The notes beneath the pieces were generated by a model. It did no database searches and was not told the origin of the DNA. It saw only the letters and a list, made by a program, of their open reading frames with translations. A stretch of DNA of 55,762 bases, from the IMG/VR virus record IMGVR_UViG_3300023055_000266, positions 1 through 55,762 of that record; one strand, written 5' to 3'. Positions 7,480-8,261 of this stretch are shown here, piece by piece. Numbering within the stretch: position 1 is the first letter of the stretch; the number at the start of each line of letters is the position of its first letter. This DNA comes from a virus (Duplodnaviria; Caudoviricetes). Both the position numbers and the translations under genes were made by a program.

Positions 7480-7510
7480 TTTGTTTATATAATATTTCTT
7501 TTTATCTTTG
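7480..7510 (+). promoter_or_regulatory. Sigma-A-type promoter of the ncRNA cassette
   Basis: TTTG (7480-7483), N19, TATCTTTG (7503-7510). Confidence 0.7.
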
Positions 7511-7526
7511 AATATCGAAAGAATAA

Positions 7527-7564
7527 CCCAATAGCGAGAAGCTAACGACACGTAGTCGGTTGGG
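7527..7564 (+). ncRNA. Compact three-way-junction RNA module
   Basis: CCCAA/TTGGG closing stem around TAGC-GAGAA-GCTA and CGAC-ACGTA-GTCG hairpins. Confidence 0.45.
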
Positions 7565-7574
7565 ATAAAATACT

Positions 7575-7677
7575 AAACGACCGTTTCCGAAAGGTGAGGT
7601 AATCAAAAGCCAATAAGGGTTCACAAATGCTTGAACAAGGGTGCTCATAACGTCCTATTAGCCTGCGACGGTCGTTT
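7575..7677 (+). ncRNA. Structured RNA module closed by a long stem
   Basis: AAACGACCGT/ACGGTCGTTT perfect 10 bp closing stem; internal CC-GAAA-GG and GTTCA/TGAAC hairpins. Confidence 0.5.
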
Positions 7678-7680
7678 TAT

Positions 7681-7693
7681 AGTTCATTGAAAT
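7681..7693 (+). promoter_or_regulatory. boxA-like antitermination element
   Basis: AGTTCATTGAAAT resembles the boxA of stable-RNA operons; lies unpaired between two RNA modules. Confidence 0.5.
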
Positions 7694-7695
7694 CA

Positions 7696-7817
7696 AAAAC
7701 ATCTTTTAGCCGTCGGGTATGGCTGAGTGAATCATAACGCAAGAAGGAATCGTAAAATCTCGATTATGGTGGTTTTCGGAATTTTTTCCACCTAATGACC
7801 CAGAGGAAGATGTTTTT
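7696..7817 (+). ncRNA. Structured RNA module, possible pseudoknot
   Basis: AAAAACATCTT/AAGATGTTTTT 11 bp closing stem; internal TTAGCC/GGCTGA, ATCATAA/TTATGGT and GGTGG/CCACC helices; loop GGGT could pair with ACCC near 7798. Confidence 0.5.
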
Positions 7818-7824
7818 AACATAA

Positions 7825-7896
7825 AGTACATTAGTTCAGGGGTAGAATAGCTCGTTGTCTGCGAGAAGGTCACGGGTTCGATCCCTGTATGTACTG
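7825..7896 (+). tRNA. tRNA-Asp(GTC)-like, atypical anticodon loop
   Basis: Acceptor AGTACAT/ATGTACT, G discriminator, D arm GTTC/GAAT, loop TTGTCTG (T at position 37), T loop TTCGATC; no encoded CCA. Confidence 0.75.
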
Positions 7897-7943
7897 CGAA
7901 TCCTCGGGGTTAGCATTCCAGAGTAATAATAAAAATGCAAACT

Positions 7944-8034
7944 GAACAGATGGCGGAATTGGTAGACGCATCAGCTGCTGTTATCAGCGGAATAGCTACA
8001 AGACTATGTTCAGGTTCGAATCCTGCGCTGTTCA
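7944..8034 (+). tRNA. tRNA-Leu-type body with non-canonical anticodon arm
   Basis: TGGCGGAATTGGTAGACGC D arm, long variable arm ATAG/CTAT, GGTTCGAATCC, A discriminator; anticodon arm closes on a 4 nt TTAT loop. Confidence 0.6.
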
Positions 8035-8125
8035 CGACAGCATTGCTGTGTTATACTTCGGTATCTAATCCGAGACAAGGTAGTTCCGTAAGTTTTAACC
8101 ATGTGCTGGCAGGTAAGCTGCCAAA

Positions 8126-8195
8126 TAGTTGTTGACAAGCGTATCAATTGGTCTTGTTGCTCGGGTCTTTGGGGTTCGAATCCCTGTACAACTAC
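8126..8195 (+). ncRNA. tRNA-like element with acceptor and T arm but no anticodon arm
   Basis: TAGTTGT/ACAACTA acceptor, GGGGTTCGAATCCCT T arm, single ACAAG/CTTGT hairpin between them. Confidence 0.5.
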
Positions 8196-8223
8196 TTCAT
8201 AATTTTAGGTTTATAATTGGTTT

Positions 8224-8261
8224 AGCCGTGGGGACTCTCCCCGTTTTCCCACGGCTTTTTT
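8224..8261 (+). terminator. Intrinsic terminator ending the ncRNA cassette
   Basis: AGCCGTGGG/CCCACGGCT stem followed by a T tract. Confidence 0.85.

What the first reader, a model, noticed from the sequence alone, without database searches (positions are those of the whole stretch)
7480..8261. Self-contained ~750 nt cassette of tandem structured and tRNA-like RNAs inserted after the portal gene
Seen: no credible ORF; a consensus promoter (7480-7510), a boxA-like sequence (7681-7693) and a strong terminator (8224-8261). Between them lie at least seven modules separated by A-rich spacers: a three-way junction (7527-7564), two 100-120 nt multibranch folds closed by perfect 10-11 bp stems (7575-7677, 7696-7817), three tRNA-like bodies, and a hairpin cluster (8037-8122). 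Known: phages carry tRNA clusters and large ncRNAs (GOLLD, ROOL), and boxA marks stable-RNA operons. Inference: one precursor is processed at the tRNA-like units into several small RNAs of unknown function, such as decoys, regulators or ribozymes. This is the best candidate for an undescribed system.
Basis: partly seen in the sequence, partly recalled or inferred. Interest (0 to 1): 0.85.

Follow-up and report, generated by a model that had tools for sequence, protein, structure and literature searches.

The report
Phage tRNA-punctuated noncoding RNA operon
A prophage of the soil bacterium Sphingobacterium carries a protein-free cassette holding a new family of folded RNAs, one tRNA, two tRNA-shaped spacers and a copy of a host small RNA, which may let the phage act on its host through RNA alone.

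Summary
The observation largely holds. 7446-8329 is a gene-free gap between an SPP1-type portal gene and the next ORF of a Sphingobacterium-type provirus. It holds:
- a Bacteroidetes-type promoter (7480-7510);
- a conserved 38-nt three-way junction, M1 (7527-7564);
- two tandem paralogues, M2 (7575-7677) and M3 (7695-7817), of one previously undescribed ~105-145-nt RNA family. 20 of 22 modelled pairs show compensatory changes, and there is no Rfam 15 match;
- tRNA-Asp;
- a tRNA-Leu-derived tRNA-like body;
- a hairpin module;
- an anticodon-arm-less tRNA-like body;

This last module is a phage copy of a host small-RNA-like element present 7-23 times per Sphingobacterium genome. Its layout resembles Bacteroides FopS sRNAs.

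The "boxA" is not conserved. Related prophages keep the flanks and swap the tRNA cargo.

Best reading (inferred, not shown): one transcript is cut by tRNA-maturation enzymes at the tRNA-shaped units, releasing trans-acting RNAs, including the counterfeit host sRNA with a host-like 5' end. The function of M1 and of M2/M3 is unknown. Transcription could not be demonstrated from the available assembled metatranscriptomes.

The parts
7480..7510 (+). Bacteroidetes-type promoter: TTTG (7480-7483), 19-nt spacer, TATCTTTG (7503-7510); predicted start near 7517
   Evidence: Read from the sequence. The full motif TTTG-N18-22-TAnnTTTG lies upstream of M1 in 10 of 25 distinct contexts. The consensus is recalled. 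The sigma-70 scan is negative here.
7527..7564 (+). M1: 38-nt three-way junction with invariant CGAGAAG and hairpin CGAC-ACGUA-GUCG; first structured element of the transcript
   Evidence: Fold z = -2.7. 97% identical even in phages whose portal is only 38% identical. Closing stem fully paired in 21 of 24 homologues; hairpin 2 paired in 24 of 24 with 3 stem versions. 24 viral-contig stretches carry it. 8 of 401 Sphingobacteriaceae genomes carry it, one copy each. No Rfam hit.
7575..7677 (+). M2: first copy of the new structured RNA family. P1 is 10 bp; inside lie P2, P2b, P3 with loop YAAAUGCU, and P4
   Evidence: R1 model score 106.8 bits. Covariation. No Rfam hit at E<=10.
7695..7817 (+). 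M3: second, diverged copy of the same family. It ends 7 nt before tRNA-Asp
   Evidence: R1 score 79.6 bits. Aligns with M2 and its relatives. Fold z = -2.1. The same M2-M3 tandem occurs in L076, L090 and L094.
7825..7897 (+). tRNA-Asp (GUC), divergent. Anticodon loop UUGUCUG has U at position 37
   Evidence: ARAGORN. Rfam tRNA 48.5 bits. Relatives' tRNA-Asp scores 64-69 bits with loop UUGUCAG.
7944..8035 (+). tRNA-Leu-derived tRNA-like body. The acceptor, D-arm and T-arm are kept. The middle folds best as a 6-bp stem with a UUAU tetraloop
   Evidence: ARAGORN calls it 'tRNA-Asn(GTT)'. Rfam 29.7 bits against gathering score 29. Its 5' 21-23 nt are 100% identical to host tRNA-Leu genes. Fold. 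Relatives keep both ends with variable middles, 92-125 nt overall.
8037..8124 (+). M4: hairpin module ending in UGGCAG-GUAAG-CUGCCA
   Evidence: Terminator-like hit 8107-8123. z = -1.8. Partial homologues only in L087 and L097. The hairpin is absent from 5 host genomes.
8127..8194 (+). Anticodon-arm-less tRNA-like body: 6-bp acceptor-like stem, D-like hairpin, canonical T-arm GGGGUUCGAAUCCCU, discriminator A8194
   Evidence: Read by eye from the sequence. No ARAGORN or Rfam tRNA call. z = 0.04. No BLAST homologue. Analogous 59-nt arm-less units in L021 and L012 score 44-47 bits as tRNA.
8195..8261 (+). Phage copy of a host multicopy sRNA-like element: single-stranded seed CUUCAUAAUUUUAGGUUUAUAAUUGGUUUAG, then terminator hairpin 8225-8255 with loop CUCCCCG, then U6 (8256-8261)
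   Evidence: The exact 19-mer occurs 11-20 times in each of 5 host genomes and in 16 of 25 relatives at 7-23 copies, with a backwards control of 0. Host copies described. Joint alignment A9. 49 viral-contig stretches carry one copy each. Fold z = -3.3.

Best explanation
The cassette is an autonomous, protein-free RNA operon (an 'RNA moron') sitting in the variable slot after the portal gene of a temperate Sphingobacterium siphovirus.

Proposed order of events:
1. A host-type (Bacteroidetes -33/-7) promoter starts a transcript of about 745 nt near 7517.
2. Its 5' end is the conserved three-way junction M1. I take M1 to be a cis-acting leader that protects the 5' end or keeps RNA polymerase elongating through this untranslated, highly structured RNA.
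3. Next come two tandem copies (M2, M3) of a new structured RNA family, then tRNA-Asp, a tRNA-Leu-derived body, a hairpin module, an anticodon-arm-less tRNA-like body, and a copy of a host multicopy small RNA. The terminator of that small RNA ends the transcript.
4. The three tRNA-shaped units act as punctuation. RNase P and RNase Z cut at their ends and release the RNAs between them.
5. In particular, a cut after discriminator A8194 would give the sRNA copy the same 5' seed that host copies get from their own promoters.
6. The released sRNA would then act on the regulon of the host sRNA family. M2 and M3 would act in trans as stable RNAs that bind a conserved host partner (protein, ribosome or small ligand) through their invariant junction and loop nucleotides.

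Shown here: the sequence anatomy, conservation, covariation, strandedness, the juxtapositions, and the host origin of the last module.

Inferred: transcription, cleavage, and every function.
For: Context:
- Terminase and SPP1-type portal lie upstream; the major head protein lies about 6 kb downstream.
- The window is a provirus record.
- Portal relatives are in Sphingobacterium genomes.

Same slot, variable cargo:
- Relatives carry tRNA-Glu, Asp, Phe, Asn, Tyr, Ser, Leu, Trp or Cys (16 of 27 loci have at least one ARAGORN tRNA).
- They also carry odd tRNA-like hits of 59-124 nt. All 25 Rfam matches in 15 loci are tRNA.
- L076 is 93% identical over 7523-7819 and 89% over 8194-8302, but unrelated in between.

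Promoter.

M1.

M2/M3 family:
- 13-sequence alignment with 22 predicted pairs.
- Copies that were not in the training set score 77 bits.
- A4: 98.4% of cells paired, 17 of 22 pairs with double changes, 0 of 500 shuffles as good, slid controls 35-57% paired.
- A5, mostly untrained sequences: 98.2% paired, 20 of 22 pairs with double changes, 0 of 500 shuffles.
- Strand: an invariant U-G pair at the inner end of P1 (14 of 14 rows) and a G-U pair in P4 (12 of 14 rows) would be mismatches on the other strand.
- Phage-only: the 6 hits in 5 host genomes all lie in the prophage; 1 of 151 family genomes has a hit.

Punctuation:
- L099: tRNA-Ser ends at 3829 and the family copy starts at 3830.
- L101: tRNA-Ala abuts a family copy.
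- L004 and L012: tRNA-Trp lies 2-4 nt upstream of a copy.
- L010, L011 and L021: the family copy runs into tRNA-Asn or an arm-less tRNA-like unit.
- Window: M3 ends 7 nt before tRNA-Asp.
- The seed CUUCAUAA follows the discriminator A of a tRNA-like unit in 5 of 9 distinct contexts.

Host sRNA element:
- 9 of 17 host copies have TAnnTTTG 11-20 nt upstream. 17 of 17 have a hairpin plus T-run. No tRNA lies within about 400 nt of any copy.
- Downstream genes are diverse or convergent.
- The layout matches what PMC11697453 reports for FopS (passages read).
Against: - No direct evidence of a discrete transcript or of cleavage. Three soil metatranscriptome assemblies hold the cassette, but they cover the portal gene and downstream genes at similar depth, and contigs cannot show RNA ends.
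- Units 2 and 3 are poor tRNAs: 29.7 bits for one and no call for the other; fold z = -0.8 and 0.04. Whether RNase P or RNase Z accepts them is unknown.
- M2 has no tRNA on either side, so its release needs another nuclease.
- In 4 of 9 contexts the sRNA seed is not preceded by a tRNA-like end.
- No enriched complementary target of the seed was found. In one host genome there were 32 sites at up to 2 mismatches, most of the best ones the sRNA genes themselves, against 27 in the backwards control.
- No partner for M1 or M2/M3 is identified. No protein gene co-varies with them.
- Much of the M1 signal is sequence identity, with only a few independent compensatory events.
Confidence: 0.55

Rival explanations
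1. M2 and M3 are cis-acting sensors (riboswitch-like aptamers). Their long P1 stem plus the following U-run would act as a ligand-stabilised terminator that gates read-through into the downstream tRNAs and sRNA. The tandem copies would sharpen the response.
For: - About 45 near-invariant nucleotides sit in junctions and loops, while stems covary and hairpin lengths vary. This is typical of aptamers.
- P1 is flanked by a 5' A-run and a 3' U-run in most members.
- The family always lies upstream of, or between, RNA genes on the same strand.
- A possible loop-to-junction pseudoknot exists between the P3 loop and the joining strand 5' of P1': G-C in 25 rows, U-A in 4, 2 exceptions among 31 rows.
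Against: - P1 is 9-11 perfect pairs and would form without a ligand.
- No competing antiterminator pairing was seen.
- Several copies lie downstream of the last tRNA (L004, L012, L099), with nothing obvious left to regulate.
- The pseudoknot covariation coincides with one lineage (the M3 type) and with changes in P4, so it may be a single event.
- No known riboswitch family matches.
Confidence: 0.12
2. M2 and M3 are self-cleaving ribozymes that serve as non-tRNA punctuation. They would free themselves and their neighbours from the precursor where no tRNA is adjacent.
For: - M2 has no tRNA-shaped neighbour, yet sits between M1 and M3.
- The fold is compact and multi-helix with invariant junction nucleotides.
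- Tandem arrangement.
Against: - No match to any ribozyme family in Rfam 15, even at E<=10.
- Half of the copies abut tRNAs, where host enzymes would do the cutting.
- No conserved cleavage-site signature was recognised.
Confidence: 0.08
3. The cassette is mainly a decaying tRNA island. tRNA-Asp is the only working gene. The two tRNA-like bodies are pseudogenes left by recombination, and the sRNA-like end was picked up only as a convenient terminator.
For: - Low or absent tRNA scores for units 2 and 3, with mismatches in the acceptor and T stems.
- Cargo between the conserved flanks is swapped freely among relatives. It also varies within one DNA sample (joints 7819>8011 and 8035>8194).
- The window's own tRNA-Asp scores 20 bits lower than its relatives'.
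Against: - The Leu-type body keeps its acceptor stem by compensatory change (GAACAG/CUGUUC, GGAAAG/CUUUCC, GACAAC/GUUGUC) and keeps an invariant D-arm and T-arm across relatives, while only the middle varies.
- The arm-less units of L021 and L012 differ by a compensatory D-stem change.
- The seed of the sRNA copy, not only its terminator, is invariant in the 5 phage copies aligned and present in 49 viral-contig stretches.
- M1 and M2/M3 are clearly under selection.
Confidence: 0.15
4. The conserved folds act at the DNA level, for example as single-stranded replication, packaging or recombination signals, and not as RNA.
For: - The slot is a recombination hot spot with conserved flanks.
- Covariation alone cannot tell RNA from single-stranded DNA.
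Against: - Invariant G-U/U-G pairs are strand-specific.
- Every copy has the orientation of the adjacent tRNA genes.
- A promoter lies upstream and a terminator downstream.
- The packaging genes lie upstream, with their own context.
Confidence: 0.03

Closest known systems
Phage tRNA islands with associated large structured RNAs (GOLLD, ROOL)
   Same: Structured RNAs of unknown function, encoded in phages and prophages, often near tRNA islands and sometimes with tRNAs inside a variable linker (PMC12286853, passages read).
   Different: No GOLLD or ROOL match in Rfam 15. M2 and M3 are about 105-125 nt units in tandem, not 580-800-nt RNAs. There is no evidence of multimeric cages. The host is Bacteroidota.
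FopS family of paralogous sRNAs of Bacteroides thetaiotaomicron
   Same: [quoted passage not shown]
- The Sphingobacterium element: 7-23 copies, about 70 nt, an invariant 5' seed, a covarying terminator, and TAnnTTTG upstream of 9 of 17 copies.
   Different: No sequence relationship could be tested, because I hold no FopS sequence. No Rfam family matched host or phage copies. Targets are unknown. Here one copy is carried by a phage and is preceded by a tRNA-like unit instead of a promoter.
tRNA punctuation and tRNA-linked release of other RNAs (mitochondrial polycistrons, MALAT1-mascRNA, 3'ETS-leuZ of E. coli, the two stable RNAs in the phage T4 tRNA cluster). All recalled; none read here
   Same: tRNA-shaped units in a precursor direct RNase P and RNase Z cuts that free neighbouring non-tRNA RNAs. 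T4 co-transcribes RNAs of unknown function with its tRNAs.
   Different: Here the punctuating units include degenerate, probably non-decoding bodies (a Leu-type body with a closed hairpin, and an anticodon-arm-less body). The released cargo includes a copy of a host sRNA. Processing is not shown.
Leader RNAs that modify elongating RNA polymerase (lambda nut boxB, HK022 put). Recalled
   Same: A short, highly conserved stem-loop element at the start of a phage transcript. In the main form of M1, hairpin 1 has a GAGAA pentaloop, which is GNRA-like as in boxB.
   Different: No sequence or family match. No N-like protein was identified. This is an analogy only.

Membership tests
tRNA (Rfam RF00005) | Score at or above the gathering score (29 bits) with a cloverleaf and a 7-nt anticodon loop | tested here: met
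   7825-7896 scores 48.5 bits and ARAGORN calls tRNA-Asp GUC. Caveat: U at position 37 and a G27-A43 mismatch.
tRNA (Rfam RF00005), unit 7944-8035 | Gathering score and a usable anticodon loop | tested here: inconclusive
   29.7 bits against 29 in E-value mode only; not listed in the whole-window gathering run. ARAGORN gives GTT with a long variable arm. The MFE fold closes the arm into 6 bp with a UUAU loop. The 5' part equals host tRNA-Leu.
tRNA (Rfam RF00005), unit 8127-8194 | Gathering score; four arms | tested here: not met
   No tRNA hit at E<=10 and no ARAGORN call. There is no anticodon arm. Only the acceptor-like stem, a D-like hairpin and the T-arm are present.
GOLLD / ROOL and all other Rfam 15 families, for M1, M2, M3 | Covariance-model match | tested here: not met
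   No + strand match overlaps 7527-7817 at E<=10. The only match touching it is a minus-strand mir-4003 match (7480-7530) at 16.3 bits. Relatives give only tRNA, plus one tmRNA_permuted.
Riboswitch (for M2/M3) | Ligand-dependent structural switch coupled to an expression platform | not testable with these tools
   Only aptamer-like conservation and a U-run after P1 are seen. No alternative pairing was found.
FopS-like multicopy sRNA (for 8195-8261) | Multicopy; about 65-70 nt; single-stranded conserved 5' seed plus intrinsic terminator; own sigma-ABfr promoter | tested here: met
   Copy number. Architecture. This holds for the host copies. The phage copy lacks its own promoter and follows a tRNA-like unit.
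FopS-like multicopy sRNA (for 8195-8261) | Sequence homology to FopS/GibS seed R1; RbpB binding; repression of susC-type mRNAs | not testable with these tools
   No FopS sequence is held. No Rfam match. A crude seed-complement scan showed no enrichment.
Intrinsic terminator (8225-8261) | G+C-rich hairpin followed by a U-run | tested here: met
   A stem of about 11 bp, -22.5 kcal/mol for 8193-8268, z = -3.3, U6 at 8256-8261. Missed by the pattern scan because of its loop-length rule.
boxA / nut-type antitermination site (7681-7693) | Conserved boxA sequence at a fixed place in related operons | tested here: not met
   The spacer is identical in L076 but unrelated in L090 and L094, which keep the M2-M3 tandem.

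The most novel reading that the evidence does not exclude
M2/M3 define a new class of ligand-binding or catalytic RNA dedicated to phage islands of translation RNAs. They sit beside tRNAs and, in one contig, beside a phage-borne permuted tmRNA. In addition, the cassette is a delivery device: degenerate tRNA bodies are kept only as cutting signals, so that the prophage can release a counterfeit copy of a host multicopy sRNA with the authentic 5' seed. That would let the prophage reprogramme the host regulon of that sRNA family, for example outer-membrane transporters that other phages use as receptors.
Probability: 0.2. Interest if true: 0.85.

Novelty: new variant of a known kind. Interest (0 to 1): 0.7.

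Why it matters
Phage tRNA islands are usually read as codon-supply or anti-defence devices, and the RNAs that ride with them (GOLLD, ROOL) remain without a function.

This cassette adds three things:
1. A compact RNA family with unusually clean covariation (20 of 22 pairs) and aptamer-like invariant junctions. It is small enough for in-line probing, cleavage assays and structure determination.
2. Natural tRNA-derived bodies that seem to be kept as scaffolds or cutting signals rather than as decoders.
3. A prophage-borne copy of a host multicopy sRNA. This would be a direct way for a temperate phage of Bacteroidota to enter host post-transcriptional control.

It also brings to light a 7-23-copy sRNA-like family in Sphingobacterium that Rfam 15 does not hold.

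All of these are testable in cultured lysogens, because related prophages lie in type-strain genomes.

Tried and rejected
- Whole-cassette homology. No match among 50,697 GenBank phage records in blastn 'distant' mode. Single-protein scans of viral contigs with the portal or the downstream ORF found nothing. The portal alignment A1 was needed.
- Expression. 24 runs hold the stretch, 14 of them on record as RNA. I laid 3 RNA runs and 1 DNA run out of those 24. All are assembled contigs; flanks are covered at similar depth and no read ends are available. RNA contig ends at 7477 (X2) and 7547/8347 (X4) are noted but carry no weight. A hole or a contig end here proves nothing.
- sRNA targets. No site in the window complements the seed better than 21 of 33. 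In host genome G004 the 15-mer complement at up to 2 mismatches gave 17+15 sites against 19+8 in the backwards control, and most exact hits are the sRNA genes themselves. No target is claimed.
- M4 hairpin as a host-derived element: 0 of 5 host genomes.
- M2/M3 in hosts outside prophages: not found in 5 genomes (150 of about 1000-1575 first-look candidates scored per genome), and found in 1 of 151 family genomes under stricter filters. 'Not found in those searched', not 'absent'.
- The metagenome scan with the M2 core pattern gave 28 stretches. 14 are strong R1 hits, largely the same phages as in the viral collection. Host range was not widened.
- Pseudoknot search by column-pair counting on 31 distinct family members. 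One candidate (P3 loop G with the C of UGCGA) is confounded with lineage. Rows dropped before that count: sequences under 95 nt, and the weak hits L083, L095, L147, L160.
- Alignment A3 misaligned the 5' strand of P1 in two rows and was not used.
- Coding potential: 4 small ORFs, no Pfam hit.
- Literature. Searches found no description of these RNAs. The exact seed strings occur in no held paper. Supplements were not consulted and could hold motif lists. PMC2330249 was searched for the T4 stable RNAs and did not mention them, so that analogy rests on recall. PMC13472631 was read in passages and is not relevant.
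Full report
**Setting.** The window is a 55.8-kb provirus record, CheckV completeness 62. Upstream of the finding lie a large terminase (4518-5960) and an SPP1-type portal (5964-7445). Downstream come a PAPS-reductase-like ORF (8330-9244), small ORFs, an HTH regulator and, from 14130, the major head protein. 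Portal homologues at 64-70% identity (52% for two further unnamed proteins) include proteins that sources name as Sphingobacterium. All 8 genome loci found with the portal alignment are Sphingobacterium, and 50 further loci came from viral contigs. The gap 7446-8329 has only four small ORFs, none with a Pfam hit.

**What standard tools see.** ARAGORN finds tRNA-Asp(GTC) at 7825-7897 and an odd 92-nt 'tRNA-Asn(GTT)' at 7944-8035. Rfam 15 at gathering thresholds finds only the first (48.5 bits). At E<=10 the second appears at 29.7 bits (gathering score 29), and nothing credible covers 7527-7817. No GenBank phage record resembles the cassette. Folded as one strand, the region is not unusual (z = -1.0), so the case rests on comparison with relatives.

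**Conserved flanks, variable cargo.**
- BLAST against the portal-linked loci shows 7440-7678 conserved at 72-76% in close kin.
- The 39 nt at 7527-7565 are 97% identical even in phages whose portal is only 38% identical.
- 8173-8265 is also conserved, while the distance between the two flanks ranges from about 370 to about 1850 nt.
- Relatives fill the gap with tRNA-Glu, Asp, Phe, Asn, Tyr, Ser, Leu, Trp or Cys (16 of 27 loci have at least one), and with non-canonical tRNA hits of 59-124 nt. All 25 Rfam matches in 15 loci are tRNA.
- The nearest relative, L076, is 93% identical over 7523-7819 and 89% over 8194-8302, with unrelated cargo between.
- One DNA run holds a variant that skips 7819>8011 and 8035>8194.
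- The slot is therefore a recombining RNA-gene island.

**Promoter and M1.**
- TTTG (7480-7483), 19 nt, TATCTTTG (7503-7510) fits the Bacteroidetes -33/-7 consensus (recalled). The full motif precedes M1 in 10 of 25 distinct contexts, and others keep the -7 box.
- M1 (7527-7564) folds as closing stem CCCAAU/GUUGGG, hairpin 1 around the invariant CGAGAAG, and hairpin 2 CGAC-ACGUA-GUCG (z = -2.7).
- Among 24 distinct homologues, the closing stem is perfect in 21 and hairpin 2 in 24. Compensatory versions exist: CGAU/AUCG and CCCU/AGGG for hairpin 2; CCAAAU/GUUUGG and GUCCAA/UUGGAC for the closing stem.
- Hairpin 1 exists in two registers that both keep CGAGAAG. That points to sequence-specific recognition.
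- The M1 pattern occurs in 24 viral-contig stretches and once each in 8 of 401 Sphingobacteriaceae genomes. It is therefore a phage element.

**M2 and M3 are one new family.**
- M3 aligns with M2 and with the M2 homologues of relatives.
- The consensus is a 9-11-bp P1; a variable hairpin P2; UGAG; a 3-bp P2b with loop AAUNAWA; CAAUAAGG; a 5-bp P3 with loop YAAAUGCU; P4 (GGGUG/CAUCC) with variable insertions; and UAUUNNCCUGCG before P1'.
- A covariance model recovers the window copies (106.8 and 79.6 bits). It also finds copies it was not trained on, in L010, L011, L020 and L021 (77 bits).
- A core-pattern scan plus the model adds members in other viral contigs (17 hits at E<=3e-14 in 22 loci) and in metagenome contigs (14 strong hits in 28 loci).
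- Covariation on A4: 98.4% of cells paired, 17 of 22 pairs with double changes, 0 of 500 shuffles as good, and slid controls 35-57% paired.
- Covariation on A5, mostly untrained sequences: 98.2% paired, 20 of 22 pairs, 0 of 500 shuffles.
- Invariant U-G and G-U pairs fix the strand.
- In five host genomes, all hits lie in the prophage. One of 151 sampled family genomes has a hit.
- The family sits next to translation RNAs. It abuts, or lies within about 15 nt of, a tRNA or tRNA-like unit in 8 of 16 copies tabulated by hand. In L093 it lies 42 nt downstream of an Rfam tmRNA_permuted match (61.8 bits, gathering score 47).
- No protein gene travels with it.

**The tRNA-shaped units.**
- tRNA-Asp is divergent. 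Its anticodon loop is UUGUCUG, against UUGUCAG in relatives.
- Unit 2 shares its first 21-23 nt exactly with host tRNA-Leu(CAA/GAG) genes. It keeps acceptor, D-arm, T-arm and discriminator A. Its middle folds best into a 6-bp stem with a tetraloop.
- Relatives keep the same ends with unrelated middles, and the acceptor stem changes in a compensatory way.
- Unit 3 (8127-8194) has an acceptor-like stem, a D-like hairpin and a canonical T-arm, but no anticodon arm. It is called by no tool and has no BLAST homologue.
- Comparable 59-nt arm-less units in L021 and L012 do score as tRNA (44.5 and 46.6 bits). They differ by a compensatory D-stem change.

**The last module is a host sRNA copy.**
- The 27 nt before the terminator are 96% identical in distant phages.
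- Their 19-nt core occurs exactly 11-20 times in each of 5 host genomes. It occurs 7-23 times in 16 of 25 relatives of one host, with a backwards control of 0.
- Seventeen host copies were read. 9 have TAnnTTTG 11-20 nt upstream, all 17 continue into a hairpin plus T-run, 12 keep a CYCCC loop motif, and none has a tRNA nearby.
- The genes downstream are unrelated or convergent, so these look like stand-alone sRNA genes of about 70 nt.
- Phage and host copies align, with an invariant seed and covarying terminator stems.
- 49 viral-contig stretches carry one copy each. No Rfam family matches.
- The layout is that reported for the FopS sRNAs of Bacteroides (PMC11697453, passages read). Homology to FopS could not be tested.
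- In the phage, the seed begins one base after the discriminator of a tRNA-like unit in 5 of 9 contexts. This is where RNase Z would cut (recalled), and it would give about the 5' end that host copies get from their promoters.

**What failed.**
- The boxA-like stretch is not conserved.
- M4 is weakly supported.
- No sRNA target emerged.
- Transcription is not shown.

**Verdict.** The interpretation (one precursor, cut at tRNA-like units, several small RNAs) is the best-supported reading but remains inferred. The cassette is a new variant of the known kind 'phage tRNA island with structured RNAs of unknown function'. It contains a new RNA family, a new leader motif, and a phage-borne copy of a host multicopy sRNA.

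Noticed in passing
L093:1923-2170 (-): A viral contig carries an Rfam tmRNA_permuted match (61.8 bits, gathering score 47). ARAGORN gives the tag GNVLQMNRPQVRLAA. It lies 42 nt upstream of an M2-family copy. This would be a phage-borne two-piece tmRNA in a Bacteroidota-type phage.
   Followed up: partly
L021:6661-6719 and L012:5925-5983: 59-nt anticodon-arm-less tRNA-like units whose acceptor stem reads G3:U70 with discriminator A. These are the alanine identity set of tRNA-Ala and tmRNA (recalled). The neighbouring canonical tRNA-Asn of L010 has G3:C70 and discriminator G. Read by eye.
   Followed up: no
host genomes G001-G005 and 16 of 25 relatives of G001; examples L111-L125: A 7-23-copy, roughly 70-nt sRNA-like gene family in Sphingobacterium: an invariant 5' seed and a terminator with a C-rich loop. 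It has no Rfam 15 match.
   Followed up: partly
window 2006-2692 and 8330-9244: Two separate PAPS-reductase-like (PP-loop) genes in one provirus (Pfam; PHROG 424). One lies directly downstream of the RNA cassette. Relatives have other genes at that place.
   Followed up: no
window 7819>8011 and 8035>8194: One DNA run holds a contig that joins across these points, that is, a co-occurring variant island with different cargo between the same module borders (table 5).
   Followed up: no
L003:6033-6123, L004:6414-6504, L018:5975-6061, L076:9633-9724: A further recurrent 87-92-nt tRNA-like type (GGGGAAGUCGUUUAGAGGCUAGGACGC ... GGUUCGAAUCC) with a long non-anticodon middle. It lies downstream of the sRNA-like module in some islands.
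   Followed up: no
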